Source: Takakia lepidozioides
Lineage: Eukaryota > Plantae > Bryophyta
Direction: 5' to 3'
NCBI GenBank assembly: GCA_030704615.1
Contig: CM060733.1
Coordinates: 16,306,001 to 16,370,000 of the forward strand
DNA: 64,000 bases
Each line of letters opens with the position of its first letter. The stretch's first letter is position 1. This document shows positions 23,739 through 58,201 of the stretch, piece by piece. Under the pieces are notes generated by a model, which searched no databases, was not told the DNA's origin, and saw nothing but the letters and a program-made list of their open reading frames with translations. Made by a program: the position numbers and the translations under genes.

Positions 23739-24037
23739 CCTCGCTGACTGGATTACTCAATGGATCACGTCTTTGCTAACTGTACATACATCGAGTAAAT
23801 AGAGAAGTACCTGCATTGACATTCATTTTCAGCAGTAATTTACACCATGAATCTTGATCAGGATTGTGCTGCTATAGTCAACATTTCAAGAACCCCACCC
23901 CAAGTGGCAGACTGTCAAGAAGTTATGCCAGAAACTCATCTAGAGAGCTGGATACGAGCTTCACAAAAATTACCAGACTCCGTCATTTGGTATGTTTCGA
24001 GCTGTCAAGTGCAAGTTCCAGACTTCTTCATTTTACG

Positions 24038-33567: not shown

Positions 33568-35519
33568 AGGACAGCGGGTGATTGTGGGTAAAAGATCCCG
33601 ACTGCCACAGTGCGCTTCCTGCAAGTTTCCCAGCAACTTAAGTATTCCTGCTCTTGTTGGAAACAAAGTAGATAACACAGAAATGATATAATATCCCAGC
33701 GAATGACACGGTAGGGGAGCAGACAACTTCCCGTGTTTGTACGCAGAGTAAACGCGGTTGATTCGCTTGGTCGCAGTCAACTGCGGGGCCCACTTACAGA
33801 CCGCGGACACGTTGTGGGCCCTAAAAAGGCGCCTAGCTATTTTCTATGTGGAAACCTTCTCAGACGGGAAGTTTTCATCCTGATACGAGAGGCACCTTAA
33901 GAAAATTGGAACTCGATGATTTTTGGTTTTTTTTCCCCTTAAAACCCAACTCACCATGCCATTAATGGCGCTTGTATGAACTAGTAATGTCGGTATCTTC
34001 AAATATTACCGATAGGATCAGCCCTTCAGTTTTTTTTCGATTTCTGTTGACAGTCGATAGGTGGGCCAAGAACTAATTTAGAATGAACAAATCAACATTG
34101 TTTGGAATAGCTCAGAGACTCAGACCATTGATTATCATGCAAGACACTAAATATCGCATGTTGAGATTTGAGTTGCATGTTCAGTTTATAAATTAGCTCA
34201 AGGAGCAAATCTGTTGATATATATGTAGTGAATTGTTTGTTGTCGGCTGTGTATTGCTCCATAGATTTATACATGCTATGAATGTTGTATATGAAGATGT
34301 CATTCAGTGGCATTTGCAGGTGATTATTACTATTTCAAACTGGTGGCTACAATAGAGAGAAGACTCCGGCCAAAGCCGACTTAACTAAGAGCTATTTCAC
34401 CTTGCCCCTTTTGGGGGGGGGGGTGCTTCCGCGTGAGCGTGAGAGCGCGTGAGCCTAGGCGGGCTCATGCCATGTCATCAGTTATTGCCACGTTGGCTGA
34501 CGGGTCTGACGCCACGTCAGCCGACTTCGCCAGCGTGCCCGACGTCACGTCATGCCACGTAATTTTCATAGGCATGGCCCCTATAACCGCGGACCGAACA
34601 GGCAAATGGGGGCCTATAGCCGTGGATTGCGCATTTGGCAGACAGGGAACCATGTGTGGGCGATGAGGCGAGGTGCAGAAGAAAGTTTAGGGTTTGTTGG
34701 TGAATGTTGCAGAATGATAATGTTTGTAGAGACTGAAATGGTTGTGGATGTATTAATGTCCAGGTCATTAGTCTACAATGGTCCTCAGATGATTTAATGC
34801 CATGCTAATGTGGTATTTTACGTTGTTGTCATCAGTGTAGAATGGTTGTGGATGAGTTAATGAGGATGAAGCAGAGCCAATGTGGATGGGACACTGCTAG
34901 TATGGATGAATGAGGATGAATAGTTGTGGACAAATATGGATGAAATATCGTGAATGGATGATAGAGTGGATGAATGTTGAGCGAGGATGTCATTCTAACA
35001 TTTATGAAAACCAAGCACAACGATCAATGTCGTTTGCACAAACATTAGAAATTGTGCCTAAAATCCGTCCTGAAGCACTTGATAAGATTTAGTGAATGTC
35101 TGGCATTTGGGGAAAGGTAGACACATGACAACAATGTAGAATAAGACAACACAACAGATGTGAGAGTGATCTTTCATTCTGCGACTTTGTCCGAGTGCTT
35201 ACTGCAACATTCTGGTGTGCAGCACGCTCCTCTTTAGTTATCCTCTTCAGTGTCGACACATTGCGAGCCATTTCAGCACTATACTTCCTGCAACGCACCA
35301 CCTGACCACGGTAAACATGGTGTGGACTCCAATGCGTATTGCGGTCCCTGCCAGTGAGGTAGAAATGTGCACTTGTATGTTACGAGAGTACTGCAATTTT
35401 CATGGTTTTTCATCAGGACCATTATACAACAACATTCAAAATGAATTTGGCTCTCGTTTGTGCATGAGGAGGAATTCCGGGTCTTACAACATTGTGTAAC
35501 AGAAATTGACAAAACGTCT

Positions 35520-35850: not shown

Positions 35851-38800
35851 TTTGCTGTACATTTCAATCAAAGCCTACAAGCCAAGATATAACTATCTAC
35901 TGTATGAAGTGCATAGAAGCCATTGTTGTAAATGCATACACGGCAAGAAAATGAGAAACCATCTTTTAACAACATTACAACGAACATGCACAAATTTTAT
36001 TACAAAGTTGTGGAGGGACACAAAATGTCTGAAACTGTGAACATCACGAGACCCCCCAAAATGATGAAATTTGCATTTCAGTCACTAGAACTATCCCCTG
36101 AAACTTGTGCAGTATCATCGACGTAAACCCGAGCTCTGAGGTGCTTGTTGTGCTTTCGAGCACATGGGGGAGATAACATGAAACTCTGTTGACGAGCAAT
36201 GGCCTCCGCGTAGTCGGGTAGGATGTATGAACGTGGAGGGCTGCACCACAAGTCACTGTGAATAAAAGAGACGTCGACCAAAGGAATAGCTTTCAATACC
36301 CTGCCACCCAAAGAACCACAATTGCATTAGCCACCATTAATGGGAAAGGGGGGGCCGTTTCCGAGGGAGAAATCGGATGCTTACAGAAAAACAACTTACT
36401 CACATGCGAAATCGTCGTCCAAAACTTTGTCATCCCCTTCGTTGATTTCCACATGCACTATACCCTCCTGTTGTTGGGCGGCAGGTGCCGGCGCTGGCGC
36501 TTCCAAGTTATAGAGGAGGTCATTGAAAATGTCCGCATCCCCTTCCATACCAAACAAATGCCTCCCCGCTGCCTTGCAAGCATGGTACGAAGCTCCTGCA
36601 AGACATAGTACTCTTAGGACACATATAAACAAATTTTGCACCAAGAAGAAAACACCACAGCAGGTTCGGGGTGAAACCTGTGCCAAGAGTGAGGTCCACG
36701 ATACGTGCCCCCGGATGGGAACAAGTCTCCACAATTGTTTGAATAAATGCTGGGCTCTTCTCCTTGGCCCCTCTCCATGGTGTGCAGTTGGATTTTTGCA
36801 AGCATACATTGGAATCCACGTAATTGTAGTGCATGTCGTCCACCACTGGATCAAACTTATCGTTGATGAAACAACCTCCCCCATGAAGCCTGAACTCCTT
36901 CACTGCTGTGGGAGTTGAAGCAGGGTGCACTCTGACGAGGCAGACGGCCTCAAAAAAGGCGGGTCTACACACAAGACAACATGAGGCACATATTAGTGAA
37001 TCCAAAAAAATTCATCTGGAAAGAACAGTGCTTGCAACCTCTGAAAATGAGTGCGTCGACGCACTCATTTCTGCAGGGGTGAAATGGAACTTCAAATGAA
37101 GCAGGTAAGAGAAAGTCGATTACCATTTGTCCGGGACAGTCGCCCTTTGTCAAGTACAGGCTGTTCACACCATTCCACATTTTGATGATTTTCATCCCCG
37201 AGGCCTTGAGGTAGCTTGCAAGCTCATGGCGACATTTCGTATTGACCGACTGGATCATTACAAGAACCCATGCATCCGATAAAAAAAAATTGCAAAATGA
37301 AAAGACCCACCGCCAGTACCTCTCATCAAATGCATTCCATGTTGGGCAAGTGCCTGTGGGTAGAATGTCCGGTACTGGCAACCTATCCGGAATGTCCACA
37401 ATCACCATGTCGGCACAACATGGTTTCAGGGAACCATTGACCCAACACTGCCCTTTCGAAACCTGAAAACAGACAGACGGCAAAAATTAAATAACTATCC
37501 AAAAGGGAAAACAGTAAATGAGACAAACAATGGGAATTGGCTTATCGAGTCAAGGAATGCACACAGCTTGCCCCAAGTTCGAGAGGGTTCTCCAGCGTAA
37601 CCAGATTTTCTGCTTTCCATCATGGCAAGGAATGAATCATTGACAATCTCGCATTTACATTCTCGCTGGATTCTGGATAGGTGCTCCACTGCGTCGTATG
37701 GCTCAATCTTCCCCTTACGTTTTCGTTCCTTGTTTCCAATTGGGGGTCTGCGCTACCTCACCCCCCGCAGTCTCCCCTTGGGTGGCTTTCTCCTTCCCTT
37801 TGTCATTTGTACCATTTCTCTTTCCCTTCCCTCTCGCAGGAGTTTTGTTGGCTGCGGGTTCCTTCTCAGCGAGGTTTCGCAGATTCCTCTCATGCAATTC
37901 CTTGTCAGTAAGAGGGGCCAAAGACTCTGCATTGTCGTTCTGGTTCCGTGTCTACAACTCATACCAGGGGCAATCTGATTTCGGAATGTCTAGATACCAG
38001 TAGCAGTCTTTCAGATGATATCTCCCGTAGTCTCTGAGGATGGCTGCAATGTACATGGTCTGACTGTTAGAGGGGTCAGAGCACAAGTCGATGAAGGCAG
38101 GGTACTTACTGAGGTTTTTTCCCAGAATGAGCACGTTCTTGATATACCTACAAAACAAAAGAGGTACACTTTTAGACATTGAAGGCAAAAAAGCATATAC
38201 TGCAGCCCTCCCAAAATGCGTGCGTCGATGCACACAGTTTGGGGTGCACAAATACTTGAGCATTAGGCAACCGAAATACACTCACTAGTACCAATGCAAG
38301 AACATGAGAAAACAAAGGGTTCCATATGCAGAAAGATATCCCTTTCTCGGCAGACAGATATTCCATTCAGAGCTGCCAACGAAACAATGAAATCCATGAT
38401 GGAGGAGAGAACACATCTGAGTTTGTGGCTTTCCAAAACTGCGTGCGTTGGCGCACGCAGTTTTGCATGGCCAAAAACTGCCTGTCTACTGATTGCCAAA
38501 GATAGTTTTCAAACATAAAACAAAACTAATGAACCTGTATAGGACCCTCTTCATGGCTCCCTCCGCCCCGTACTGCTGGTCAAAGTCATTTGTGCGGGAG
38601 ATTCCTCCATCTCGGGAAAACTCTCTGAAGAAGCAGTTGCTCCAAGCAGTGGCCTTCCACTGCCTCAAGTAATCCTCCAGAGTGTCCTCGGGCACGGTCA
38701 TGGTAATTTTGTAGTCATAAAGCTGTTTCTCCAGCACCTGGTTTGCACGAGCTTTAATCTGCAGGTATTCATATGCATGCGTTAGAGTCCATTCATGGGA

Positions 38801-39889
38801 AGATATTCTCAGAATTTCAAGCAAAGAAAGTCCTTAAAAGTACGTGGCTCCAGTAGGTGGCTTTGTACAACCATGTATCAAGAACTTGGTCGTTGATGTG
38901 CCCGGTGTTCTCATCTCTTTCACCCCTAGGGAAGCAGTATGTATCCTTGACAGTTGGGTCAGAATTCCAAATCTCCAACCATTTCACTTTCTGGTCAGCT
39001 TCCACAGATGCAGTTGACAACCGGTGAAGCTTTTCCTGTGTCATCTCCGGTTTGGTGTTATTGTTCCAGTGGATCCTCACCTGATTAAGAAACTCGGGAC
39101 CAAAATCAGGGTCAACTATTCTCAGCTATTTCACGAAAGCGCTCATGAGCTTCTTCCGTATCTCATTCATCGTAAATTTCATGGCTTCTGCCACTCCCTT
39201 GGACGTCCTCATACCCTCCGGGTTTTTCAAATAGTGCTCCGCTTTTCCTCTCTCTCCAGCTTCAACTATTTCTTGCTGCAAAACGTAATCCGGAATGAGA
39301 TCACTTGTTACTGACAATCACAACAGACAATGGAAGGCCGGAGCGATGGAATACTTACAGTGTACATGTACTCCATGAATGTTTCCCTCGTTAGATTGTA
39401 CCAGGTATCTGACGTTTTTGATGTCAAACATTTCTTGAATGACTCCGCACGCAGGATGCTCTTGAATGAATTGAGGGGCATCTGGCCGATATTCTGGATC
39501 CTGAATAGTGTGTGAAGAAGGTTCATTGTCACATGGGCGGTTTCAGTTCCCCTGTCACATACAATGGTGTGTCGTCAGTGAGTGCTAAAAGCGAACAGAC
39601 AGTCAAGGAAAAAATGCGGACAATAACAAGTGAAGAAGACACTTACTTGTTAACGTCATGCATTGCCGTCAACAGTGCAGTGATGTTTCCCTTGCGATCC
39701 AGCACCATTGAGGCCACAGAATAGTGCCACTCCTCCTCGGTGCTATGATATCTCTCGATCATGTTCCTCCAGGCAAGCAATCGGTGGTTGCCATCCCAGA
39801 CATGAAACTTCTTGCCAGAGAAAGGTTGGGTGACGAGCCTCTTGCAAATGATAGATTCAAACTCCTCATTTATCTGTCGCCAGATAGGA

Positions 39890-40581
39890 TGTCGTGCGCA
39901 TACATATCGCTACACAACTACATCGCTATCCAAAACCACACAACACATGTGCACGCCACACACACTAGTATATCACTAGTCCACCACTAGTCCAACCACT
40001 AAGGTATAACTAGTCAGTCACTAGGCTGCCACTATGCTGTCCACTATGGCAGTCACTAGTCCACACAATCGATAAAGACAGAAGAAAGAAGAGGACATAC
40101 AAGCACAAGCTCACAAGCTGAAGCATAAACTCATGCATATATAACCTCATCACTCAAATACAAGTCAAACCAAGTGCACCCCACGCCATGGAGAATCCAC
40201 ACTACGGCGCCATAGCTAGGCGCGGTGAGGCTCAACTCGAGAAAGATGAGCCTCCCGCGCTTGCCGTGAAGATAACCACTCCAGGGCCTAAATCTGCCTT
40301 GACCCCTGGATTGACACTTGGGCCAATCCCAAATGTCAATATGTAAAAACTAGCTATTTTCTAGCTAGTTTCACACTAGTGGTAAAATAACTTGACAGCT
40401 GTCGTGCGCATACATATCGCTACACAACTACATCGCTGTCCAAAACCACACAACACATGTGCACGCCACACACACTAGTATATCACTAGTCCACCACTAG
40501 TCCAACCACTAAGGTATAACTAGTTAGTCACTAGGCTGCCACTATGCTGCCCACTATGGTAGTCACTAGTCCACACAATCG
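39890..40581 (-). repeat. 3' terminal repeat block Y-gc-X-Y (Y: 40400-40581 and 39890-40070; X: 40071-40397)
   Basis: tgtcgtgcgcatacatatcg..ccacacaatcg occurs twice; gataaaga..aaataacttgaca matches 49092-49416. Confidence 0.92.
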
Positions 40582-40837
40582 CCCCCCTAGCTGGTGCTTC
40601 GGTCCCTCTAAGTCCAGGTAGCCATAAGATGTGATAGTGACCATAGCCTGACTAAGTCTTCCACCACTGTCCCTACTACACTCAAACTCGATAGATCAAG
40701 AGGCCGGGTGCGAGAGTTGCCCCAACATTAGTCGCCGTCTTGCAACCTGTGAACTTGAGCTTGGGATCTCATGTATTGACTCCTATGAGCTTGGCCTCCC
40801 ATGTCTTGTTAGTTGCCTCCAGTCATGTCCACTGCCA

Positions 40838-41060
40838 CTATCCCAAGCAGTGTGGACACAACCAATCTCCATCAGGAACCCTCTCAAGAGGTGGTGTCAA
40901 GCATCCCATATGCCAACCTCTTGAGCATCGATCACACACCAGCATGGTGGCTGCCGCTTTGGCAGACCCACAGAACATGCACCTCAAACCTGCAGGTACC
41001 ACTGCCAAGTTTGGGTCAACTCTGCCATCGACATTGGGAAGGTGACATGGCGCACAATTA
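40838..41060 (-). pseudogene. PHD finger at the integrase C-terminus
   Basis: CMFC..MLVCDRCSRGWHMGCLTPPLERVPDGDWLCPHC (C4HC3). Confidence 0.92.
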
Positions 41061-41118
41061 CGCACATGGTCCTTCCAAGTCATGCCGAACAAGAGGGACA
41101 TCTTCAAGACACTCCAAT

Positions 41119-42624
41119 TCAGGACATGAGCTGGACATAGTGTCCACAATTGAGTACAGTAACCAAGATCAGGACCCCTGAGGGCAACACCTCTCGAACC
41201 CTCAGAATAACACGCCCTGCATTGACATCCATGGTCGTAGGAGCAGTCTGCTGCAAATAAACATAGTCACCAGGGCTAAACCTCCAAACCCCAGGACAAT
41301 ATCCTCCACCACGTATAGTGGCATACCTCAACGTATCACGGTGCTGTGCAATGGCAAGGTTCTCAAAAGCCATGGGCATGACTTTCTTAAACAACTCTGC
41401 ACGCTGATCACATGCACGTACCCACACGTCCGGATCGTCAAGGTTAAGGACTTGAGCAGTGTCCTTACGAATGGCTGCAGGCAAATCCGGCTCTCGGCCA
41501 AAGAGAAGGAAATATGGTGAGAAGGAGGCAAGTGATGCTTGTTTGCTGAACCTGTAGCCCATGGCTAACCAAGGAACCTGAAGATCCCAATCTCCTAGGT
41601 GTCCCTTCTGCAAGCCATACTTGCGCAAACCCCTCTTCACCGTCTGGATGACTCTCTCTGCCAAGCCATCGGCCTCAGGATGATCCCGAGAAGTGGTGCG
41701 GTGGTCTATCAAGGCTTTATCACACAAAGCCTGAAACTCCCCCAAGAACTCTCTCCCTTGGTCCATGAGTACCTCAGCTGGAGCACCAAATCGGCTAAGC
41801 ACACGATCCAAGAATGCATACGCAGCCCCCTCACTAGCCTTGTCAGGCAATGGAACCAACTCAATCCACTTGGAGAAGTGCTCCACCATCACCAACACAT
41901 ATCTGTGGTGGCGCATAGTCAGTGGCAACGGTCCTGCGAAGTCAAGACTCCACCTGTAGCCCAATCCCATGATTGGTAAAGGATGCAACTGTGGTGTAGG
42001 GGCGTTGAATGAAGCACGCACCCTGTCACACACCATGCACCTAGCCACGAACTATTGCACCTCTGTATGCATACCACGCCACCAATACTGCCCTTGCAGT
42101 AAACTGTGAGTGCGTCGCACTCCAAAATGCCCCAACTCCTCATGGGCATGCCGCACTAACCGTGCACGCTGTGTGGGGTGAGGCACAATCCTCACCCGAC
42201 CATCCTCCCACACTCAAAAGTAGGTGTATCCCCTCCCACTTGAACCTCTTGGCTCGTTGCAGGATCCGATCCCTCTCCCTGGCAGTCACAGTGGCTGCCG
42301 TGTCTCCAGTGCGGAGGTAGTCCAACACAACTGAATCCTCATGTATATCTTTGGCACCACCTGGCTCATCACTAGCCTCAGGGTCCTCAGACACTCTGTC
42401 TACAGTCATCCCTGCTGGAGGTCCAACCTGACCTCCCGATGCCAAGATACACAAAAATGCAGATGTGTGCCATCCCGGCACCATCTCCTCGTCCGTCTCA
42501 CCATGCCCCGAGCTCCAGTGTCATCCTGCTGGCTCGTGCATGGATTGCGACTCAATCCATCCGCATCCTTATTGACCAAACCCGGTCGATGCACAACCTG
42601 AACATGTCTCTCATGCTCCTCCAC
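41119..42624 (-). pseudogene. Gypsy RNase H C-terminal end + integrase (HHCC, DDE core)
   Basis: VVHRPGLVNKDADGLSR; HEELGHFG..YW..CMVC; WSLDFAGPLP, MDQGREF, HPEADGLAER, SPYFLLFGR, FSPGDYVYL. Confidence 0.92.
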
Positions 42625-42788
42625 CGTAGCACGAGAGGCAAAGCAATTCCTGTAAGCCTCAGGAACCGCCGTATACGTCGTCTCTCTTCTCTAATGACAA
42701 TAGGTCCAATGTCAAGCTCCCAATTGCCCTTTGTAACTGCAACCTTAAGTCCAGCAGACTTAGAGGTAGAGGACGCGTCCCGTGGTTG

Positions 42789-44360
42789 CTATGCCGCAAC
42801 CTCTTGAGCAGTACTCCCTGCCTGTTCAGTCAATGATAAGGCCTCATCCTGCCCCATCATCTCATCATTGAGAACCTCTTCAACCCGAGAAGAATCCCCA
42901 ACCTCATCCATCACAGCTGCCTTGGCTGCCAACTCCCTCTGAATCTCGAGCACCTCCCACATGTGCCATGGATGTCTACACCCCGTGGTCCTCGCCGGCT
43001 CGCCCCCACTCGTTGCCTGTACCGTCTCGGTAGGCAGAGAGACTGTAAAGGGAAGTGCACTCCGCACTCTACGTTGCTCAGCCATAGCCAAGTTGATAAT
43101 CCAGGTCAAGCAATTGAGATCCATTGCTTGCCCCAACACCTGACGACGTGATGCCTCAAAAAGAGACGGCACCGCCGTGGTACCAGTGGTAAAACCCATT
43201 GCCCACTCACGCTCGTCAACATTAGGCTCCACTAACTGCTGCAACTGAGCATCCCACAGGAGGCCAGGTCCACTATCCTGGAAAGCATGCGATCCTGGGA
43301 AGCTGAGCAGTGTAGGTAGTGCTACTCGTGGTTAACCCACCTTGTTGACCACTGCCAAAGGCGAACGGTCATCGTGTCTCACACGTTGAGACTGCCTCCT
43401 TGTGTCCAAAATGCTATCCACTGTGAGATGTGCTGGCCGCTGCACCCCATCAAATGCACGCTTGAGCAGTGTGGGTGGCATCAAGTTAGTCCACCATAGC
43501 CGTGGACGATGAGCCCGTGATCCCACTGCAGCTGCATCCAGCAGCACTACTGACCCAAGCCACGTCTGGACTTGATGCACACTGGCCATCACCCTGGCCC
43601 AAGAATCGCCCATCAGTGGCACATTCTCCAAGATGTATGTTGGCGATACAGCTTGATGAAGCTGCAAGTGGTGCAAAATCCGCACCATCTCCCAAAACAG
43701 ACCCGTCCTCGAGTCTCGCAATCCATTGTCATGCCCGGCTGATGAATGCCCTTGGCAGGGCCAACCTGCCACTACCAGATCAATGGAGCCAACCTGCTCC
43801 AAATCCGGCGCCCCCAGCAAAGAAATGTCTGCTGGCAAGGCCTGCTGATATCCACGAACTGCAGACACCGGCAACAACTCAGGGTACTGCTGCACCATCT
43901 GAGCAACATGACGGAGTGAGACGCGTCGTGCAGTCTCATCCCTCTCCACATACAAGTAATGCCTTACCCGCACACCTGCCTGTAGCATAGCAGCCAATCC
44001 GGTGCTGATCCCACCAAACAAGTCCAGAAGACAAATGCCTTCATCTGGATACTGCCACACAATAGGTGTGGTGTCCAATGGAGACAACTGAGGTGGTCCT
44101 GGTGCAATCCCCGCACTCTCCTCCTCTCCTGACGGTACAAAAGCCTCCACCCAGGCTTGTTGCACCCGTTGATCAGCATCCCGCTGCAAATCCTTGCTCG
44201 TGCCCCATAATGGAGTCTGAGCAACCATGGTAGGCAACTCCGCCATACCATACATGTCATCCTGCTCTCCCGGAGGTGGCACATCCTCTGAATGAGCGTT
44301 GCCCTCAAGCAACTCTCTAGGCCAACTCACTGCCGCTGTGAATGCTGCTAGTGTCGGCAT
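42789..44360 (-). pseudogene. DNMT3-like C5 cytosine methyltransferase domain inside pol (one in-frame stop at 43332-43334)
   Basis: Motifs I LLDLFGGISTG, II YVERD, IV VAGWPCQGHS, VI YILENV, VIII AHRPRLWWTN, IX/X EREWAMGF..RRQVLGQAMD; ORFs 43332-44360 and 42789-43244 are in the same frame. Confidence 0.92.
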
Positions 44361-46941
44361 CTTGCCTCGCTGGGCAACCGCAACTCCTCATATGAACGTC
44401 ACAGGGAGCTGCACACGCCGGCCCTCCCCTGACTGCCATCTAGGCCTATAGGAAGCTGACTCCTCCCAAAAATCCATGGTGAAGCCCATGGGGTATAATA
44501 CTGCCCCACCAACCAGGACATCGTACGAGACCGCGTCTGTCACAATGGCCTTGGCTCGCATCACTGAGCCATCTATAGGATGATCCGGCTATAGTCTGAT
44601 AGCCAACTCACGCCGTGTCATGCCTCGAGCCTGCTCCAATCCTCCCAGAGACGTCTGTATCTGGTAAGGACAAGGCTCCATATCCGCCTCCGTGAGGCCC
44701 AAGCCTGCAACAGCAGCTTTGCCCAGCATCAATGGCTGAGCTCCCGAGTCTAACAAGACCCGCAGTGGCCGGTACCTCTTGCCTGCCGGTCCACTCAAAC
44801 AGAAAATACCATCCTGGTTGTCTAACAAGACAACTCCGGGTGTCACCATGGCGCGCTCAATGGCTGGCCTAGCTGGCAGCTCCATCAACCTGACAGCTGC
44901 AGCTTGCCAAGGCGCCGCCGTGGCAGTCTTGACCCTCAAATCCGAGGATCCCTCCGGTACTACACCTCCCACTATCTCCGCAGAAGATGAAGTAACCTCC
45001 ACACTCTCACAGAGTGTAGCTGCCAGCCTGAACACCTCAGCTGGTTTTACCCCAGCGTCGCAATCATGGTAGCCGAGAACAATGGAGCCTGGCACACAGA
45101 TGTGGCCGCTCCCAGCAGCACACTAGCTGCCGTAGTGTTGGCAACACTAGGTAGTGGTGCTACCCGTGTAGCTCTCCCCAATGGCATAGTAACCTCCGCC
45201 TCGGTAACAGTCGGGCGAGAACTAGGTGCCATGGATGGCGTCGACACTGTCTCTGCCAATGTGAATGACTGAGGAAGCCTAGCCTGACGGCTTGCCTCCC
45301 CACGTTGTGGATCCAACTCCACCTCTGCACCTCGTGGCTCAGGAACTTGTGCTGTTCCTCGAGTCACGGCTGCAGCAGACTTGACCTGCACTAGTGGTAG
45401 TGCTGCTCCACACATGAATCCCATGTCTCTCATATCTCCTCCCTTAGGAACAGGAGGTGGACCATCCGGCATTGGAGCCGGTACCACCTGAGCTGTAGCC
45501 ATGGCAGCGAGCCTTTGTTCTAGCTGCTGAAGCCGGTTGGCCATGCCTTGGCCACCACCTTGACCTCCGCGTCCTTGGCCATGTTGAGCTTGCCCTTGGC
45601 CTGCACCTCGTGCCTAGCCACCTCGTCCTCTCTGGGCTGCTCCACCTCGCCCCCGGCCACCATTGTTCCCTTGGAACTGGCCTGGGTGCAACTCAGGATG
45701 CAAACCATAACACTGGGCCTCTCCATGCCCGTGCTTGCCACAATGCCCACACTGCAACTGTGCAGGCTGTGCATATGCTAGCCCTTTGCCTTCCTCTAGG
45801 CAATCCTTCTTGACATGGGGTCCTCCACATGTCCAACACACCACATCCGCCCGTTGTTGGCCTGCAAATGAAGGGAGAGACCCCTGCATCTGAGGTTCTC
45901 TCTGTCCTTCCCTGGGCTTCACCTAAGCCCCCTTGTTGCCTTGAGCACGTTGAGGTAGTGGTTGGCTAAGCACCACTACCCCGTGGTGTCTCCTTAGCAA
46001 ATCCCACCATGACCACTCGTTCCTCCACCATGTTGAGCTCTATCCGCTCTGCCAGCAAAAACACATTTGCTAAGGTGGGTTGGGCCGCTTGTAGGAGAGT
46101 TGCATCCCGCACCCTTCTCCTCAGCTCCTTGTCCAATATCCCATACCAAAATTGGACTGCCTGAGCTTCCGTAACCCCTTGGGTTACATTTATCAAGCGC
46201 CTCATGCAAGTGAAAGCCTCCCTCAAGCTCTCAGTCGGCTTCCGTTGGAACTCTTGCAAGCTCCGCAACTTCTCTGTCCTCACCCCTTGGTAGTTCCCTC
46301 TTAACTCTTCGAAGAACTCCACAACAGGGTTGAAGGCAGGCACCGCCACTGGTGCTGGTGCAGCAGTAGCTTGGGTGGACGTCGTAGCTATGGTATCACC
46401 AGTCCCACTGCTGCTTGGCTGAAGCTGCCGGTGCAGCGGCAGCTGTAGCCAATGCCCTCGTGGCTCTAGTGCCCCTAGTGATGGAGACATAGTCGGGTGA
46501 CCAATACATCCTCCACTCCTCGATCTCAACCTCATGCCCCCGCCCGAACTCATGGTAATCATCCATAGGCGGCCCCTCAAGGTGCTGAAACAACCCCTTC
46601 CATACCATGAAAGGCGTAAATAGTTGTGGATTGCGCATTTGCTGCAAATCACACCAACTATCAAACTCTTGGATAAAATCATCCAACTCAATGGTGCCCA
46701 CCGCCCCAGAGTACCTTCGTGGCCCCTTGGTAGCTCCATATATCTCCTCCATTGTGTCCCACAACAATGACAAGGAAACAACTTGCACCGCCGGTATGAG
46801 TCCTCCTAATTCACAATCCGAATTAGAACCTTCCGTAGAAGACACAAGAGGTGAAGGTGGCCTAAACCGCACACCTCGTCTCGTGTACCCATTAGTATCG
46901 TTAGTGCTCAAACCGGCACTCTCCCCAGCAACTAGTGGCAC
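44361..46941 (-). pseudogene. Gypsy gag (two CCHC knuckles) and aspartic protease
   Basis: FQRKPTESLREAF (gag), CWTCGGPHVKKDC and CGHCGKHGHGEAQC, VLLDSGAQPLML..YDVLVGG. Confidence 0.88.
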
Positions 46942-47509
46942 CTCCGTGTTGACAAACTGTCACTCAACCGGTCATGAACATGTCTCTAACCCCCTCTCCA
47001 CAAGGTTACCGGGTAGAGAACCTGTTGCAGCTTATGGTTTGGAATACTAGATTCCTAACATAGCCTACACCTGCACCTGCATCCACCGCAAGCACTCCTA
47101 TGGTTGGCTGGTCATCACCTCCAACCTCACCACAGGAGAAACAATGATGGTCTGACTGGTCATCACCCCAGCCTCACCATCGACAGCATGCTCTAGGACT
47201 GGCCGGTGATCAAATCCGGACCAATCACCTATAAAAACAAGTGCCCACACAAAACTAACATGGCGCACAGTCAAGCATGCAGGTGTGGGGGGGATCCAAA
47301 CACAAGAAATCAGAACGACAACTCCCCCACACCAAAAACAACTCCACGGTGTTGCTCCTGCAATGACACCCCAGCCCAAACCCGGACTGACTCTTGCCTC
47401 CACCTACGGAAAGGTCTTGGCCTAATGAGAGGGTGGAAAACTACAAGGAAGAGAAGCTAAAGCAATGCCTAACCCCAGCATGCTCTCATCCCGTCCAACA
47501 GTTGGAATC

Positions 47510-48565
47510 TGTCGCCAGTCAGTCCGCTTGTCAGTCGCCAGTCTGCTGGTGAGTCCACTTGCCAGTCTACCGGACTGAGTCAGTCTGCTTGCCAATCGCC
47601 AGTCCGCTCGTCAATCACCGGTCTGCTGGTGAGTCCACTCGCCAGTCTACTGGACTGAGTCAATCCGCTCGCCAATCACCGGTCTACTGGTGAGTCCACT
47701 CGCCGGTCTACCGGACTGAGTCAGTCCGCTTGCCAATCGCCAGTCTGCTCGTCAATCACCGGTCTGCTGGTGAGTCCACTCGCCAGTCTACCGGACTGAG
47801 TCAGTCCGCTGCAGAGCTGCAGAGAACCAAAAAGCAAGTGGAAGGAGCAGGGCTGCCCACAGCCTCTTCTTCATCAGTCGACTCAGTCTCAGGAGAAGCT
47901 GGAATGGCTTTATCACCAGCCCCCTTACATCTGGGGATCCAGTCCAAAGGTAAGGGAAAAGCCTCTCCAAACACGCCACTAAACTCAATGGCAAACAACC
48001 AAGCCCTGCTGGCTCCCAGCCCTTGTGAGCACTCATTCAAGCACTCTCCTTGGCCATAGCATCTGTCTTAGAGCCTATTCCAGCCCCCTACACCTGCCAC
48101 TTCAAGAGCCATGCTCTACCTAGGCTTGGGGTTGAAACCTCAACTCACATATGCCCTACAAGTGGTCTTCTTTCACCCAAGTGGGAACCAGCCCTAGCCC
48201 TTCCATTCTAGCTCTCTAAAGCTTGAAAACAAAAGCCTCAATGGGCTGAAGGCATGCTCCACACATGCCCCACTCTCACCATGAGAGAATCAGCTCTTTT
48301 GCTTCATTTCTTGCACCCACAAACCTGAAAATACAAGCTTCAGCAGGCTGAAAACATGCTCCACACATGCTCTACAGGGCAACCAGCCCCTTCCTTCCTT
48401 TCTTGCACTCCCAAACCTGAAAGTACAAGCCTTCAACAGGCTGAAAGCATGCTCCACACATGCTCTACAGGGCAACCAGCCCCTCCTTCTTTCTTTCTTG
48501 CACTCTCTCCAAGCTTGAAGATGGCAGCTTCAACGAGCTGAATACATGCTCCACACATGCAACCT
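47510..48565. repeat. Two tandem repeat clusters in the gypsy 5' leader
   Basis: ggtgagtccactcgccagtctaccggactgagtcagtc about 4 times (47510-47810); ggctgaa..catgctccacacatgc 4 times (48230-48565). Confidence 0.85.
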
Positions 48566-49091
48566 CTTCACACAAGAGGTATCAGCCCCCTATCTTGGCT
48601 CCTTGGCTCCTTGATGCTCTCTAAGACAAGACTAAGCACTCCACAGCCCTTGCCACTCCTGAAACCCTAAGGCTTACATTTCCAGCCCCAAGAGACTCCT
48701 CTTGTGGTGCAAGAGCTCTTCTTCTTCCAAGCTCTGAAACCCTAGGTGCACATTCCATGGCCTTGCCGCACATCTTAGCTTTTGTTCTAGCCCTACTCTT
48801 GCCATGACAAGAGCCCTCTCAATGCTGAAGCTCGAGATTGAAACCCAATCTCCACATACTCCACAAAGTGCACTGATTTGCCCCAGCCAAATCAGCCCTT
48901 TCGCTTGGTCTTACAATCCTTCACACAATGAAAGCTCGCATTCCCAAGTCCAGTTCTCAGCTTTGCCACCAAGCCACTCCATGGTGCTCCTTGCATAACA
49001 ACCTGGTTTCTCTCATTCTCAAGCAAAAACCACAAGTGCTACAACTAACTCGAACCTGGCACTCACAGACTCGGGCTGATCTTTCTCGAGT

Positions 49092-49416
49092 GATAAAGAA
49101 AGAAGAAAGAAGAGGACATACAAGCACAAGCTCACAAGCTGAAGCATAAACTCATGCATATATAACCTCATCACTCAAATACAAGTCAAGCCACGTGCAC
49201 CCCACGCCATGGGAATCCACACTACGTGCCATAGCTAGGCGCGGTGATGCTCAACTCGAGAAAGATGAGCCTCCCGCGCTTGCCGTGAAGATAACCACTC
49301 CAGGGCCTAAATCTGCCTTGATCCCTGGATTGACACTTGGGCCAATCCCAAATGTCAATATATAAAAACTAGCTATTTTCTAGCTAGTTTCACACTAGTG
49401 GTAAAATAACTTGACA
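49092..49416 (-). repeat. 5' terminal repeat X of the gypsy element
   Basis: Near-identical to 40071-40397; Y is not adjacent. Confidence 0.92.
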
Positions 49417-51498
49417 AGGATCCCAGCCTCCAACAATGGACTCGTCCACCAACACCTCTCTGCCAACGGAGTCCGCCAAGGAGACGTAAAAACAGATTGA
49501 CCCTCTACGTACCCATGGCAAAAATCACGTTCCAACTTTTGAATGTCATTCATCAGAGCTGGTCGAACAAAGGGCATGGAGATCAAACGACATAGGGGTA
49601 TCATTATTTTTCCCCCAGGGACGCCCATGGCCTTGATGACTTGGGCAGAATTCACTTTGGAGAATGAAAGCAGATCTTTCGCTTTGTCTTCATATGACCT
49701 GCCATCGTCCTCCTCCTCAACAACCACCAGTTCCTGCTCAATCACTTCTTCCTCGACCTGAGTAGCACCTTTCATTTTCTTTGTCTGCACTCAAAACGAT
49801 ATATTATGAATGTAAAAGACTTGCCAGAAATTGCGTGCTTCAACGCACGCAATTTTCTACCCTCTGAAAGGTACTCATTTCTTTGCCTATTTCATACCCA
49901 ATGTCAATCTACTCTCTTGCATCAAACATTTAATCTAATCTCGCTGTAGGCTGAAAGGTGAGTGCGAGAGAACCTCCAGAAACTGCGTGCGTTGACGCAC
50001 GCAATTTCTGGGGGTTCTCTCACACTCACTTTTCTGCCTATTCATGGCTTCTGTCGCAGTTAACACAGCACAGCTGAGAGAAGGTCATAGAGAGAACATT
50101 CAGAAATTGCGTGTGTTGACGCACGCAATTTCTGGAGGTTCTCTCTATGACCTTCTCTCGGCTGTCGAACTCTAATCGAACTACTTGGGATGGTACAACC
50201 ATTGTGCAATGTGAAAGTCTCTCCTCCTATGCAGTACATGAAAAGTGAGAAGTAGGTCACACCCGGGTTTGGTTGTTATGCATTGCCTGCATCCCTGTGG
50301 TCTTACTCTAAATGATCAAGCATAAAAAAGCAGAAGAGATGGCAAGAAAAATGTGTGCGCCACCGCACGTAGTTTTCATGCCCTGGAAACTTGACAGAAA
50401 ATGGCAAGTAAGAGAATCACCTGAGGTCCTTTGGCCGACGAACTCCCAGCTGCCTTTGATGTGGCAACAACGGCGGTCGTCCTCCCAGTTTGGGCAGCCT
50501 TCTTAACCTTTGGCGTCGCCTCCTCCTCCACAATGTTCTTCCCCTTCGGCGTGGATTCCTTTGCAAGAGCGTCTGCCTCGTCTGTGTCCATAGAGTCTGT
50601 GTCGTCCTCTGACACAGTTTCGTCCGCAACTTCATCAGGAGTTGGCGGCTGGTCCTCCCCCGCCATGTGTTTGGTTTCCAGGGCTGCGCTCTCCTCTGCG
50701 ATCTCCTTCAGTGTCATGTTCAGCTTTCGGCCTTTCATTCTCTCTCTTGCCTTCTTCCTCTCTCGCGCTGAAGTAAAAAAGAATGACTGTCTTCTAGGCC
50801 TTCCACTCTCTCGCGCGGAACTCTGTCTCCTGCTACTCTCCAGCTTGAAAAACTACGATCTACTGGAATGAGAGACGTCGTGCGATGAGTAGCAGCCGGG
50901 GCATCGCTCTCGGCGGTTATACATGTATTCACTGCATACGTGTCCCCCTCCTAACGGCACACTCGTCCATTCTGCGGTGGCTGCCGTCTTTCATTATGGA
51001 GGTATGGCCATCGCATGGATTTGATTCGGATGGATGACTAATTTCAGTAGATTTTTTGGATTCTCCCAGATCAACATCTTCCATTCGTTCGACGCCGATT
51101 CGTCTTAAACCCTACACTCAATGCATTGTCGAGTTCCACGTAGCTGAACACCTTGGGGTGGCATGGGATGTTGGTCCCCGCCGTCATTTCACATGGGTCT
51201 GTAAAGGCAGATAACTGCTTAATAACTGTTTTATGAACTGTTTTGACAACTGTTTCTGAAAGGCTCTTTAACGGTATGTCAGCTTTTAAAATAGGTCTTG
51301 ACTGACCCTTCCATAACGGTTTGGGACATACATGACGAGTTGTCCTTTGCCGACCTCGTTAGTAAAGGTGACGGACTTTTAGGTTTCGGTCTGAAATGTA
51401 AAGCATGAGAAATGTAATCCCCACTATTGTTTGTAACAAGAATCCGCACAGAAGTTGTGGCTTCCGCACTTTTGCGAGGGAATTTCTTTTGCAGCAAC

Positions 51499-54400
51499 AT
51501 GGCTTCCTCCGAAGCGGAGTTTTACTCTGTGGAGAAACCGGTACCTTTCTCGAAGGAGACCGATGACAATGGTTTTGCAATTGCGGAGGAACATCTCCTA
51601 GCAATGCGTTTCGAGTTCCAGTATGGTACTGTGTGGCTGGAAAGAGAGGTTTACGGTGTCGGTGGGAAGTTGAAGAAGTATGCTTTCCAGAAACCAGATG
51701 AAAACGCACTTATGAGTCAGTGGAGAGTTCCTCCAGGAAGATACAGAGTCTTTGGAGCTCATTGCCGGCAGTCGATTGGTTCGTATGTGGCGTCGGAAAC
51801 TGCTGCTTCTATTGTTCAAGACAAGATGAATGTGGTCGTGAAGACGGAGCCCACAACTTCTAGACAAATTGTTGAGCTCTCCGATTCCTCGGAGGAGGAC
51901 GTCCCGAAAATTCCTTTTGTGGCTCCTTCTCTGGTGGTGTGGTGCCCGAATTGAAGGACCTGTGTAGTGTCATTCCTAAACTGAAGTCAATGGGAGGAAT
52001 GCCCGGTTTCAAGAGTGAATTGCGGGGGATTGACTAGGACACTGTCCCTGTTGAGCGTGTGCAGTACCTTCCAAAATCTTTTGATGGGGATGTCGTCTTC
52101 GAGCTGCCTCCACCTGGGTGGGGTGGACCCGTTTCGAGCCTCATGCACGGAATGGACAAGAGACACGATGGACACCTATGGTGCAGAACGAAGACATCCA
52201 ATATTCAACATGATGACAAGCTCGTGTTCAGGAGAGCGGTGTGCAATGGGCACCTGAGGTGCGAGAATTTGAGTTGCAGACATTTCCTGCGGTCAGAGGT
52301 TCAGAACCAGAGCGAGAGCCCGGTGAAGCACCTCCAAGCTCCAACACTTTCGTTTGCAAGTTCTGCAAACGAGCGCCTTCCTGTGTGGCAGTGTGTGGAG
52401 CAAGAATGTACTATGTGGTGCACCGTTTTCCAACCTTGACTAGAGCCGGTGTGCATTTCGGGTTCCACAACCATCCAGTGTCGAAGGGGGATTACAGGGA
52501 AAGCGTTGAAACAGTATCTAGGTTGATAAGACAAGAGTATGAGAGCAATCCAACAGCCACCACCTCCACAATTGTTCTTGGAGCAAACAAGACTTCCTGG
52601 AAACCCATATTCTTAGTGAAGGAGATTCTGTGGGCAGGAAACTCGACGGGTCAGCCTTGGACAATGTTATGGATCACTTCTCTACCTCGAGCTCGCCGAA
52701 CATTAAAACCAGGTGAATGCATTGAGGATGGGCTCTGCTAACAGAGGGTACGTTGATAACATTTTCGAGTTGAAGCGATGGAGCAGGTATGACTACATTC
52801 AAGAGAGTGTGTTCCCAGGTCAAAGGTCGAACAAAGTGTACGTTTTCAAAATGTCCACAGCCGGGGAGGGCAGCGGAGTCAGTCTTGTGAAGCGCATGCA
52901 GAAGGGTGGCGATCTTCAAAACTGTTTCCTTATGTTTGATCACGTCAAATGAGTGAAAGACTGGACTACAATGGCGTGTCATGTTTACGATCCTTTCTAC
53001 CAGCGAGTCATGACAATTGCAGTGTGTGACATGCAATCAGAGGATGTGGATTCGCAGCAGCTAATGTGGAGAAATCTCATTCGCGTTATGGACTCCCAAG
53101 GTGTCCCATGTCCAAATTTCGCCAGATTTATGGCAGATAGTGCTCAAGCGAATTTCAATGCTATTCGCATTGTGTTTGGATCAGGAGATCCAAAGGTGCC
53201 AATGCCAGGAAGAGAGCGAACATATCTTTTCCATTGGACCAGTCCCTTGAGAAACATACAAAGGCAGACATCAAACCGAAAATGCAGCCTATTCATCTTA
53301 GGCTATGCAAACAGTACAAAGATGCCAAAAGCATGGCAGAGGCGAATACATTGTTCCAGACAATTTGTGCCTAGAGGTTCTCATCTGGGTGCATCAGAAG
53401 ACAGTATGAGAGCGCTAGAAGACTGGTTGGCATTTTGGCACTTCCGGTACAGACAATGGGGAGCATGCATGACAACGGTGCGTGCATTTGAAAACTTGAA
53501 AATTTCATTGAGTTTGTATCCATTTCCAATCATGTCTGTTGTGGTGAGGTGTGCATGTCCTCTTTCTGATATATGTTTTTCCATTTTGCAGCACTTCTCA
53601 ATTGAGGAGATGGCGGACATCCCCTCTTGCAATCTGGCGGAGACGGTGCACAATGTATGGTTGCAGCAATCTGGAAAGCGGGGCTGGGATTTGTATGTGG
53701 CGACGGCAGATGATCTGATTCAAGCTCTACTGCAATAGACGAGATATCGGGAGTTCTTGCGGGGTGGCGTTGGTGGCAAGGGTCCAGACAAGTCCGAGTT
53801 GATGTTGCGAGTAGCAAGAAGATCAGGGGATCCGAACAAGAGTTCCAGGGCTGTCAGCATGTGTGCGGAAGGAACTCCTCTGGTGTCCAGAGTTCCCCAT
53901 CTGGAGGGTGAGGAGAGATTCGGGTCTTGTAAACGGAAATTGAACACCTTTCTTGGGTCGGATGCGGACTCCCACAAGCCGGACAGGGACAACTTCTCCA
54001 TGCCGCGTGTTCCATTTCATCAGAGGTTCGTTTCCGGCATATCCAGTGTGAACGATCCTTTGTCACAAAGCCAAAGGCAGCCATCTCCCACAGTGAGTGC
54101 AATGGGGCAGGAGGCGAACGTGCTCCCCCCTGTGGTGGAGTCCATGTGCCCCGACGAAGTCTGGCACATAGAACGCACCACTGCTGGGTCTCGAGTGAAG
54201 TGCACGGCAATCAGAGCAACCAATCGTGAGAAATGCAAGTCCTCCATATCCAGAGGCAAGGTCCGAACTCCGGCTCCGACCTTCACTGGTTTGTTCACGC
54301 CTTATGGGCAAGCCGAGGCGAAGAACCACAAATTCTGGTTCTGCCCTGACGACTGTGGTAGGTGCGTGCGTGGGACTGTGCGACCATCGGTTATCATGAA

Positions 54401-54975
54401 GCCTCCTCCACCAAGCGTTTGGCCTGTGAAGGTGGGGACACATCTCACAACTCACGAGATTGCCATGCTGGGAGGAGGCAGGCTTCTCCCTTTAGCGAGC
54501 CCCCTCTGTACATGCAGGTGCTTCTACTTCAGCAAGTTCTGGAGTGCCACCACCGAATGCTGATGCATGGCCAACAAAACGAAATGGGAAGCTGGTTCGT
54601 CGTTTCCCTCCGACTGCCGAGCATTTCGGCAAGGTGGAATCCGCTTGAATGCTTCAAGGTCGTGTTACAGGCACTACGGAAGTTCCACATCCCAGGTATG
54701 GACGAATCTACACTATGATGACCTCCACATCCGCTATGCACGACCGGTTGTACGACATCACCGTTTCAAATTTCCCCAACTGCACCTGTCCTGATTTTGT
54801 TGGCATGCTTACAACAAGTTTGGGAAAGACAGACAAATTTATACCCTGCAAGCATCTGTATTTTATCTTCTTGAACAGAATGGTTTGTGATCCCAGACAC
54901 GACATCTTCATTCACCAGGCCACCATGAGTTTCAACGAGGTGAATACACTTATGCAGCGGGATAGGAGCACATAG
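51499..54975 (+). pseudogene. MULE-type transposase, copy B (more disrupted than copy A)
   Basis: Collinear with 4402-7905, with additional stops, frameshifts and a small deletion near 52316. Confidence 0.75.
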
Positions 54976-56276
54976 CATCCTCTTCACTTTGGTCATCTAC
55001 AAATTCCATTACTGGATTTTACAAGAGTTGAAACTTGAACTTGATGTCCCTTCATATATTTGATGCCAATGCAGCCTCCAATTATGTTGTGCAATGTGTG
55101 CCATTTCTTTCTTGTGTGTAGTCGTTCGAATAAAAATGGAATGGATGCAAATGCTTTCACAAGTCGTTCCTGTATTTTAATTTCTGGTGTTTTGCATGAA
55201 TGAATGTCACGGCTATAGGCCCCTCGGCTATAGGTGCTACATGTTTCTGATGATATGGCATCTGCCAAGTTGTCCAGATGCCACGTCAGTCGGATATTGA
55301 CATGTCAGCAGACCCACGCCACGTCAGCCTCACGCTCACGCCACGTCAGCGCGACCCCACGCTCACGTCACATCAGCTGGTGTGAGCCTGCGCTCACGCC
55401 ACATCACCTCCGCGTGAGCGTACGCTCTCACGCTCACGCGGAAGTCACGTCCCTTTCGGGGGTGGGCTCTATGTGGCTACAGTTCTATTGTGTTCTATTG
55501 TAGCACAAGCTATTATAGATTGTAATAAGAAGTTCTTCAATGTCATAGGGCCCACCCCCGAAAAGAGGGCAATAGCGGCGAGGCAAAGTGACTTTTAGTT
55601 ACGCCGGCTTTGATCAGAGTCTTTTCTCTCTCTATTTCATTGATATCTTTATGGGTTTACCTGGGTTTGTCAATGATTGTCGGGTGTGGGAACAGTGCAT
55701 CTCTATTGAAGTTTGAAGATAGATTCCAGATTTTCGTGGAATGACATCTTATGGTCGAAGAACGGATTAGAGTCAAACACAAGGTATGGTGGACTGTGAG
55801 TATGCTAGCTGGTCTGGCTTTAAGGCGGGCCTTGTACATGGCGTCGGCCTAATAATATTGCAAAGCATGATTTTCTTAACTCAATATTAATCACTTTGCA
55901 ATAGAAAAGGTATTGGCTGGCCTTGTACATGGCGCCGGCCTAATAATGTTGCAAACCATGGTCCTTTTAACTTGAGTATATTATTCACTTTGCAATAGAA
56001 AATGAATCAACATTAGCTGGGCCAATCAATGCACATATTTATGAAGTTTAAGGGACAGTCAATGTCAAATTTCCCTTCAGTCACAAACTGGTTCATAAAA
56101 GCCAAACCATCATATGTAAACAAGGAAGCTCAATTGTCTTTCCATCTCCAAGAATTTACTAGGCCATCATGGGATGTCTTCATTTTGAAAACAACAGGCT
56201 AAAACCAGCAATCACAAGTAGACAAGTTGTGGTACACTTTTAACAGTAACCAGATGTTTAATAGAATACAACGCTG

Positions 56277-58160: not shown

Positions 58161-58201
58161 AAAATCCTTATGGCTCTAAAGGCTAGCATATCTTCATCAC
58201 C

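What the first reader, a model, noticed from the sequence alone, without database searches (positions are those of the whole stretch)
49820..50380. Repeated GTCGAC-centred palindromes confined to introns of the ParB-MTase gene (parS-like or VANC-target-like sites)
Seen: a ~26-34 bp palindrome, consensus roughly AAAnTGCGTGCGT-CG-ACGCACGCAnTTT, recurs at 415-440, 1578-1612 and 1802-1833 in copy A. In copy B it recurs at 37045-37070 (perfect), 38211-38243, 38434-38465, 49826-49858, 49977-50010, 50101-50134 and, degenerately, 50346-50376. All fall in predicted introns of the same gene. Arms co-vary between sites (GAGT/ACTC, GTGT/ACAC, GCGT/ACGC), so symmetry is maintained. Known: bacterial ParB loads at palindromic parS sites, and VANC proteins target motifs repeated in non-coding parts of their own MULE. 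Inference: these are cis-acting loading or recognition sites for the element-encoded protein, making a self-targeting protein-plus-site system.
Basis: partly seen in the sequence, partly recalled or inferred. Interest (0 to 1): 0.88.

Follow-up and report, generated by a model that had tools for sequence, protein, structure and literature searches.

The report
Transposon intron palindromes beside ParB-fold gene
A broken plant jumping gene carries seven copies of one 28-letter palindrome, all inside non-coding gaps (one shown spliced, two predicted introns) of its second gene, whose product has a predicted bacterial DNA-clamp fold plus a methylase-like tail and likely docks on these palindromes to keep the element active, an idea already proposed but untested for algal transposons.

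Summary
The palindromes are real. They are seven distinct sites, because copies A and B are a segmental duplication. The unit is two inverted half-sites, AAAHTGHGTGCG, around a variable 4-bp spacer. GTCGAC is the centre in only 2 of 10.

All sites lie in introns 1, 4 and 6 of a roughly 1,070-1,090-aa gene opposite a SWIM-bearing, Mutator-like transposase. Intron 6 is spliced in two RNA-guess runs. A modelled homologue of the N-terminal domain has the ParB/sulfiredoxin fold. The C-terminus is a beta-class amino-methyltransferase homologue with an altered catalytic motif (DIPD).

The core is conserved as sequence rather than as pairing, and shows no G-U bias on the transcript strand. The claimed arm co-variation is weak. 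No high-copy MITE signal was seen.

Best reading (0.55): loading sites for the element's own protein. Binding, NTP use and methylation are untested. The same protein layout (Ectocarpus Sola1-1_Ec32) and the idea of a ParB protein plus its own inverted repeats (red-algal PAG3) are published. This is a land-plant, intron-dispersed variant.

The parts
49828..49855 (.). Palindrome core, intron 1 (spacer TCAA)
   Evidence: intron 49785-50420
49947..50040 (.). Palindrome core 49980-50007 (spacer TTGA) with 47-bp site-specific arms, intron 1
   Evidence: 49942-50029 skipped in one contig of run X5
50070..50165 (.). Palindrome core 50104-50131 (spacer TTGA) with 48-bp site-specific arms, intron 1
50348..50375 (.). 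Degenerate palindrome core, intron 1 (spacer CCAC)
38436..38463 (.). Palindrome core, intron 4 (spacer TTGG)
   Evidence: intron 38148-38534
38213..38240 (.). Palindrome core, intron 4 (spacer TCGA, one mismatch to the pattern)
   Evidence: diverged contigs align up to 38240-38244 and then leave
37044..37071 (.). Palindrome core, intron 6 (GAGT/ACTC variant; TCGA here, TTGA in other copies)
   Evidence: intron 36965-37123 joined across in contigs of X7 and X8
414..441 (.). Copy A duplicate of the intron-6 site
1581..1608 (.). Copy A duplicate of an intron-4 site
1804..1831 (.). Copy A duplicate of an intron-4 site
36396..50736 (-). Accessory gene, copy B: 8 predicted exons, about 1,070-1,090 aa (my sum of exon lengths; start codon not fixed); ParB/Srx-fold N-domain, unassigned middle, beta-class amino-methyltransferase-like C-domain; broken by a retrotransposon, frameshifts and stops
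39647..49784 (-). Exon 2 (49784-49417 plus 39890-39647): ParB-fold domain with VRP and WDGNHR motifs, split by the retrotransposon
36396..37460 (-). Exons 6-8: methyltransferase-like domain (motif IV reads DIPD, motif I reads DLTLGTG)
   Evidence: (weak)
1..3640 (-). Accessory gene, copy A: runs off the window; lacks the equivalent of 49484-50396
51460..54975 (+). Transposase-like gene of copy B (A: about 4390-7905), frameshifted, with C-terminal SWIM finger; Mutator-like by recalled motifs
   Evidence: SWIM E 0.0021, under the Pfam cut-off
34354..34560 (.). Candidate left end: 59-bp inverted repeat (81% to the right end) and subterminal GCGTGAGCGTGAG / GCCACGTCAGC repeats
55270..55630 (.). 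Candidate right end (A: 8210-8560) with the same subterminal repeats inverted
39891..49416 (-). Inserted Gypsy-like retrotransposon (not part of the system), 4-bp duplication TCCT

Best explanation
The palindromes are likely double-stranded DNA loading sites for the transposon's own accessory protein, which is predicted to have a ParB-type nucleotide-binding fold and a methyltransferase-like tail and would dock on them, spread along the element and counter host silencing. Shown from sequence and calls: seven 28-bp inverted repeats with a fixed core and a free 4-bp spacer, only in non-coding gaps of this gene, with one gap spliced. Predicted: ParB/Srx fold from a homologue's model; beta-class methyltransferase homology. 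Inferred: binding as a dimer (two half-sites), NTP-gated sliding by analogy to ParB and KorB, and the outcome. The catalytic motif lacks its aromatic residue (DIPD), so I favour protection of the element by occupancy or base recognition over active 6mA/4mC writing in this family (about 60:40). The long arms of two sites are best read as local inverted duplication or template-switch by-products.
For: Confinement: introns are 13% of the element and 30% of its non-coding DNA; counting only the three introns as events, P = 0.002 and 0.028. Sequence-type conservation: of 12 core columns in 14 half-sites, 6 are invariant and 13 of 18 deviations sit in two columns (P 6e-5 and 0.003 under uniform change; half-sites are not independent). 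The spacer is free. Flanks outside the core are alike in only 6 of 91 half-site pairs, 4 of them within the two long hairpins. In diverged copies the alignment stops at the palindrome's edge, and one X8 contig matches only 38199-38244, with 3 differences. Arm CpGs are kept (4 of 28 decayed) while the spacer CpG is lost in 5 of 7 (Fisher p 0.006; ancestral state unknown). Protein: AlphaFold model of homologue P0005, pLDDT 89.8; the top VIA rows are KorB (Z 8.0, rmsd 2.6, 92 aligned), PadC, SerK, Srx and ParB; Foldseek ranks Srx, Noc, ParB and KorB first, though none at E <= 0.001. GxxR is kept (G 0.90, R 0.82 of 78 rows). Methyltransferase profile E 1.9e-5, 20.2 bits against a best shuffle of 5.3 in 1,000. 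Precedent: PMC12477816 and 10.1101/2025.02.11.637652 (passages).
Against: No binding, nucleotide or methylation data. No DNA-binding helix-turn-helix was shown: the middle region had no Pfam match over cut-off and was not folded. A shared fold shows no function: Srx and SerK have it without clamping DNA (PMC12704722, passages), and Z 7-8 is common in that search. There are no sites in the intergenic promoter or at the ends, where VANC21 also binds. Half-sites of 12-16 bp are longer than the 8-bp halves of a 16-bp parS (listing). Introns 1 and 4 are only predicted, and X7/X8 contigs run through intron 1 unspliced. The metagenome scan's 2 of 2 hits were bacterial intergenic hairpins with no such gene, so the pattern also arises elsewhere. 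Both window copies are dead. The methyltransferase profile was seeded from a weak hit to this same exon (E 6), and only motifs X-I scored.
Confidence: 0.55

Rival explanations
1. The sites are cis elements read by another protein, either the element's transposase or a host transcription factor, acting as intronic enhancers of the accessory gene.
For: The same sequence-type conservation. The subterminal repeats share a GCGTG core with the half-site. Transposases themselves activate cognate copies (10.64898/2026.08.24.746577, abstract start and passages).
Against: The full half-site is absent from the ends: 20 of 23 matrix hits are the ten sites, and the other 3 are lone, weaker and outside the element. 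The gene that holds the sites encodes a fold whose best-known members bind palindromes.
Confidence: 0.17
2. The sites work by structure: hairpins in the pre-mRNA (splicing control, small-RNA source) or DNA cruciforms.
For: All fold on the transcript strand (-13.5 to -28.7 kcal/mol for 40 nt; about -70 for 100 nt around the two long ones). The transcript strand is the more stable in 5 of 7. Outer positions are more symmetric within than between sites (0.55 vs 0.30 at 16-22). There is one symmetric transversion. Fast loss of the spacer CpG would fit a single-stranded loop.
Against: Transition mismatches would be G-U on the transcript in 5 cases and on the other strand in 12 (stem lengths set by eye; p 0.14), and 3 against 4 in the core. 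The core is fixed in sequence across three introns with no extra within-site symmetry (0.89 vs 0.87). The loop is not conserved. Rfam was not searched.
Confidence: 0.14
3. Neutral debris: footprints of a small palindromic mobile unit that landed in these introns, spread by local duplication and kept symmetric by template switching.
For: Introns with sites are longer (636, 387, 159 bp) than those without (81-96 bp). Two intron-1 sites share 56 bp at 91%. One site is mostly missing in an X5 contig, and copy A lost four. Between A and B the cores differ at 3 of 84 positions, against 17 of 773 in other intron sequence, so no slower change is seen in these dead copies.
Against: Summed contig depth over the sites (X1: 214-666) is within the range of exon bins, whereas the retrotransposon end gives 124,000-174,000 (the tool warns depth is not copy number, and a 28-bp core may be too short to be laid). 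The conservation is column-specific, there is no shared outer unit between introns, and the site persists where the rest of the intron is unalignable.
Confidence: 0.14

Closest known systems
Accessory gene of Sola1-1_Ec32, Ectocarpus (PMC12477816; passages read, supplements not read)
   Same: About 1,100 aa (1,104 there), ParB-like plus N4C/N6A methyltransferase domain, on the strand opposite the transposase; proposed to bind and modify its own element.
   Different: Brown alga and Sola1 there; a plant and a SWIM-bearing Mutator-like transposase here. That text has 0 occurrences of 'palindrom'. Homology of the two proteins was not tested directly.
PAG3 of red-algal Plavaka elements (10.1101/2025.02.11.637652; passages read, supplements not seen)
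   Same: Transposon accessory protein with a ParB-like N-domain and the element's own inverted repeats nearby; the same hypothesis is stated there.
   Different: PAG3 carries a 2OG oxygenase and the methylase is a separate gene (PAG2). The repeats are tandem arrays adjacent to the gene, not single sites dispersed in three introns.
VANC21 / VANDAL21 of Arabidopsis (PMC5735166; passages read)
   Same: Mutator-like element with an accessory gene; motifs in non-coding parts, including the accessory gene's introns.
   Different: The VANC21 motif is 9 bp, arrayed in one orientation in tandem repeats, and binding and hypomethylation are shown. Here the site is a 28-bp palindrome, the protein is ParB-fold, and nothing is shown.
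Bacterial ParB-parS and KorB (PMC12704722 passages; PDB 8qa8, 6sdk)
   Same: N-domain fold, GxxR motif, palindromic candidate site.
   Different: No ParA partner, no helix-turn-helix shown, longer site, extra methyltransferase-like domain; nucleotide unknown (the fold also binds ATP or GTP).
Phage ParB_N + N6_N4_Mtase fusions (PMC12704722 passages; example L017, 445 aa)
   Same: Domain order ParB then beta-class methyltransferase.
   Different: Intron-less, much shorter, motif IV intact (DPPY in L017); no detectable sequence match to the family's ParB profile.

Membership tests
ParB/Srx fold | Fold of the N-terminal domain | tested here: met
   Model of homologue P0005 (not the window's own exon), pLDDT 89.8; the 8 rows with Z >= 5 include KorB, PadC, SerK, Srx, ParB-N and SbnI. 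Pfam ParB_N matched 0 of 78 members.
ParB/Srx fold | Box II GxxR motif | tested here: met
   WDGNHR in both copies; G 0.90, N 0.99, H 0.91, R 0.82 across 78 rows.
ParB-parS clamp systems | Helix-turn-helix domain that reads the palindrome | tested here: inconclusive
   No Pfam hit over cut-off in the middle exons scanned. Atlas structure rows for fern homologue P0119 include ParB_N and HTH_ParB clusters, all under the bar.
ParB-parS clamp systems | CTP-dependent loading and sliding | not testable with these tools
   Needs biochemistry.
ParB-parS clamp systems | ParA partner | tested here: not met
   The element holds two genes only; no ParA family match among the ORFs scanned.
Beta-class N6A/N4C methyltransferases (PF01555) | Permuted order, motif IV before motif I | tested here: met
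   Alignment to 13 phage enzymes; E 1.9e-5 among 1,002 sequences. Single exons did not reach Pfam.
Beta-class N6A/N4C methyltransferases (PF01555) | Catalytic motif with terminal aromatic residue (DPPY type) | tested here: not met
   DIPD in both copies; no variant row at that codon among the 40 of 143 rows shown. Fern homologue P0119 has DVPF.
Mutator-like elements | MULE DDE transposase, often with SWIM | tested here: inconclusive
   SWIM E 0.0021, under cut-off; no Pfam MULE hit on the frameshifted pieces. The assignment rests on recalled motifs.
Mutator-like elements | Terminal inverted repeats and 8-11-bp target duplication (PMC6446971, passages) | tested here: inconclusive
   59-bp inverted repeat at 81%. 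An 8-mer CTATTTCA flanks both sides, but lies 16 bp off on the left and also occurs inside the repeat.
VANC-type anti-silencing system | Motifs in the element's non-coding DNA | tested here: met
   introns only.
VANC-type anti-silencing system | Short motif in same-orientation tandem arrays | tested here: not met
   Sites are palindromes; no tandem array reported over them.
VANC-type anti-silencing system | Protein binds the motif and removes methylation | not testable with these tools
   No binding or methylome data.

The most novel reading that the evidence does not exclude
Seed-free land plants harbour a large family of transposons that run a bacterial-style parS/ParB system on their own DNA: an NTP-gated clamp loads at intronic palindromes, slides along the element and shields or marks it with 6mA/4mC, with the site sequence changing in step with the protein between families. 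It would be a sequence-addressed sliding clamp acting on eukaryotic chromatin, and a programmable anti-silencing tool.
Probability: 0.25. Interest if true: 0.85.

Novelty: new variant of a known kind. Interest (0 to 1): 0.52.

Why it matters
Two papers propose that ParB-like transposon accessory proteins bind and modify their own element, and one states that VANDALs are the only transposons known to do so. My searches found no test of the idea and no report from land plants. This locus supplies a defined 28-bp candidate site with invariant and free positions, and a protein family of at least 731 clusters with fern members. That makes the binding, nucleotide and methylation questions directly testable. 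The concept itself is not new.

Tried and rejected
No whole genome is held, so no genome-wide motif scan was possible. Related-locus scans of viral contigs and GTDB genomes gave no relative except L003 (50 aa, 36%), which I judged spurious and did not examine. So no DNA of a related family was obtained, and protein-site co-variation between families is untested. Word-based protein searches: 0, 1 and 0 hits. The first fold, with 4 rows, failed (pLDDT 35). PDB sequence searches found nothing relevant. The homodimer prediction of P0151 gave no answer (score 0.00, alignment not used) and is not evidence either way. No RNA holder was listed by the run search. Rejected: 'GTCGAC centre'; 'co-varying arms prove symmetry selection'; a shared larger mobile unit around the core; kinship to Marchantia DN4MT1 as closest known (TSPPY motif, host gene; 10.1101/2021.02.12.428880, passages). 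Noted but not pursued: 5 of 10 centres fit GTYRAC, a known amino-methyltransferase target (recalled), which CpG decay explains equally well. Iyer et al. (PMC4738411, passages) and 10.64898/2026.05.21.726589 (abstract start; term search, 0 'ParB') do not describe this element. Supplements of the Ectocarpus paper, its references 50-51 and bioRxiv supplements were not seen and may already list plant members or palindromes.

Full report
1. Observation. The pattern RAAHTGHGTGCG-N4-CGCACDCADTTY matches 10 places in the window at up to 3 mismatches (6 exact, 4 with one mismatch). The pattern came from the sites themselves; a pattern-free scan for 13-bp arms found 8 of the 10 among 19 loci. A half-site matrix gave 23 hits: the 20 halves (15.5-24.1 bits) and 3 lone weaker ones outside the element (12.7-15.0). 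Copies A (from 1) and B (from 36630) are a 96-97% segmental duplication, and A lacks 49484-50396, so there are 7 distinct sites. The centre is a variable 4-bp spacer; GTCGAC occurs in 2 of 10, and other genomic copies read TTGA at 37057.

2. The element. Without a 9.5-kb retrotransposon (39891-49416), copy B is about 11.75 kb, with candidate inverted ends at 34354-34412 and 55570-55630. It holds a plus-strand transposase-like gene with a SWIM finger (E 0.0021, under cut-off; Mutator-like by recalled motifs only) and, head to head, a minus-strand gene of 8 predicted exons. Introns: 1, 49785-50420 (four sites); 2, 96 bp; 3, 83 bp; 4, 38148-38534 (two sites); 5, 85 bp; 6, 36965-37123 (one site); 7, 81 bp. 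Intron 6 is supported directly: contigs of runs X7 and X8 (RNA by the tool's guess, two studies) stop at 37124 and continue with the next exon's sequence (compared). Intron 2 is supported by homologues: P0008 reads straight from exon 2 into exon 3, and 35 of the 50 hits (of 150) that carry the exon-end motif stop within 2 residues of it. Introns 1 and 4 are predicted only; X7 and X8 contigs cross intron 1 unspliced. Both copies are dead: frameshifts, stops, a broken donor in B, the insertion in B and the deletion in A. The family is multi-copy in its host (773 and 335 contigs laid from X1). The host is probably a seed-free land plant (inference from fern homologues).

3. The protein. Standard families miss it (Pfam; PHROG ParB-like E 0.15 and DNA methyltransferase E 0.09). 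A profile search found 731 clusters at E <= 0.001. A 78-row alignment gave a model of homologue P0005 at pLDDT 89.8. Its structural neighbours are KorB (Z 8.0, rmsd 2.6, 92 aligned), PadC (7.8), SerK (7.3), Srx (6.8) and ParB-N (6.4); Foldseek lists the same families first, without reaching E 0.001. GxxR is conserved. The last three exons, read with X at the break, score 20.2 bits on a profile of 13 phage beta-class methyltransferases, against 5.3 for the best of 1,000 shuffles. The seed came from a weak hit to the same exon, and only the motif X-I part scores. Motif IV reads DIPD, without the aromatic residue. Fern homologues carry both domains: P0119 has DVPF, and P0083 has the motif X-I part. 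So the fusion is shared with ferns, but catalysis in this family is doubtful. No helix-turn-helix was shown.

4. What kind of site. Three tests favour a sequence-read DNA site over a hairpin. First, in 14 half-sites of copy B, 6 of 12 core columns are invariant and two columns hold 13 of 18 deviations. Second, core symmetry within a site (0.89) is no higher than similarity between sites (0.87). Third, transition mismatches would be G-U pairs on the transcript in 5 cases and on the other strand in 12 (stem limits set by eye; not significant). The spacer CpG is lost in 5 of 7 sites, arm CpGs in 4 of 28. Diverged contigs stay alignable to the outer edge of the 38213 site and no further. Against: outer arms are site-specifically symmetric, strongly so in two sites; the transcript strand folds better in 5 of 7; site-bearing introns are longer; and A-versus-B divergence is not lower in the cores (3 of 84 against 17 of 773). 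Depth over the sites matches exon depth, unlike the retrotransposon end, which argues weakly against a high-copy MITE. The genome-wide test could not be run, and the metagenome scan returned 2 unrelated bacterial hairpins.

5. Mechanism. Most likely (0.55) the accessory protein binds the two half-sites as a dimer and, like ParB or KorB, uses nucleotide binding to close and spread, keeping the element from being silenced, either by occupancy or by adenine/N4-cytosine methylation if the altered motif still works. Site anatomy and location are shown; fold and homology are predicted; binding, sliding and outcome are inferred. Rivals: sites for the transposase or a host factor (0.17), RNA or DNA hairpin function (0.14), neutral debris (0.14).

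6. Known systems. Ectocarpus Sola1-1_Ec32 carries a 1,104-aa ParB-like plus N4C/N6A methyltransferase gene opposite its transposase, proposed to bind and modify its own element (PMC12477816, passages). Red-algal PAG3 has a ParB-like domain and adjacent tandem inverted repeats, with the same proposal (10.1101/2025.02.11.637652, passages). VANC21 binds a 9-bp motif in non-coding parts of VANDAL21 (PMC5735166, passages). Phage ParB-N6N4-methyltransferase fusions are common (PMC12704722, passages). Earlier notes of this scan report similar gene-plus-palindrome elements in other genomes (27 and 37 notes). They are unchecked and are not counted as support, but they pointed me to the Ectocarpus paper, which lowered my novelty rating.

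7. Verdict. A real, non-random feature; a new variant of a published but untested kind of system. Interest 0.52.

Noticed in passing
window 39891-49416 (minus strand): Gypsy-like retrotransposon with gag-like and protease-like pieces (under cut-off), a C5 cytosine methyltransferase (PF00145, E 3.6e-13), integrase (rve) and PHD finger. Its ends are split direct repeats: Y at 49092-49416 and X-Y-X at 40400-40581, 40071-40397 and 39891-40071, unusual for an integrase-bearing element. Its end is very abundant in run X1.
   Followed up: partly
window 34427-34560 and 55270-55445 (A: 8210-8372): Subterminal repeats GCGTGAGCGTGAG and GCCACGTCAGC, inverted between the two ends, including a separate imperfect palindrome at 55412-55439; candidate transposase sites sharing GCGTG with the intronic half-site.
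   Followed up: partly
window 35519-35847: 98-bp tandem array (3.3 copies) inside the element, downstream of the accessory gene; it does not contain the palindrome.
   Followed up: no
window 9201-10480 and 56278-58265: 181-bp tandem array with 7 copies in A and 11 in B, outside the element.
   Followed up: no
window 17866-20049: Uninterrupted 727-aa frame with DDE_Tnp_1_7 (E 1e-77), piggyBac-like by recall, possibly intact.
   Followed up: no
window 21421-23885 and 31128-33567: Inverted 98% duplicate of an intron-less gene that looks like a GPAT acyltransferase (label recalled), around a Copia-like element at about 26300-29600.
   Followed up: no
window 37270-37340: Summed contig depth jumps about tenfold over part of the methyltransferase-like exon, with diverged loose ends; may mark a more abundant related sub-family.
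   Followed up: no
P0119 (fern homologue): Its nearest Atlas structure row is a fungal cluster in which 22% of members carry DUF3723 (under the bar), hinting that DUF3723 proteins belong to the same ParB-fold group.
   Followed up: no
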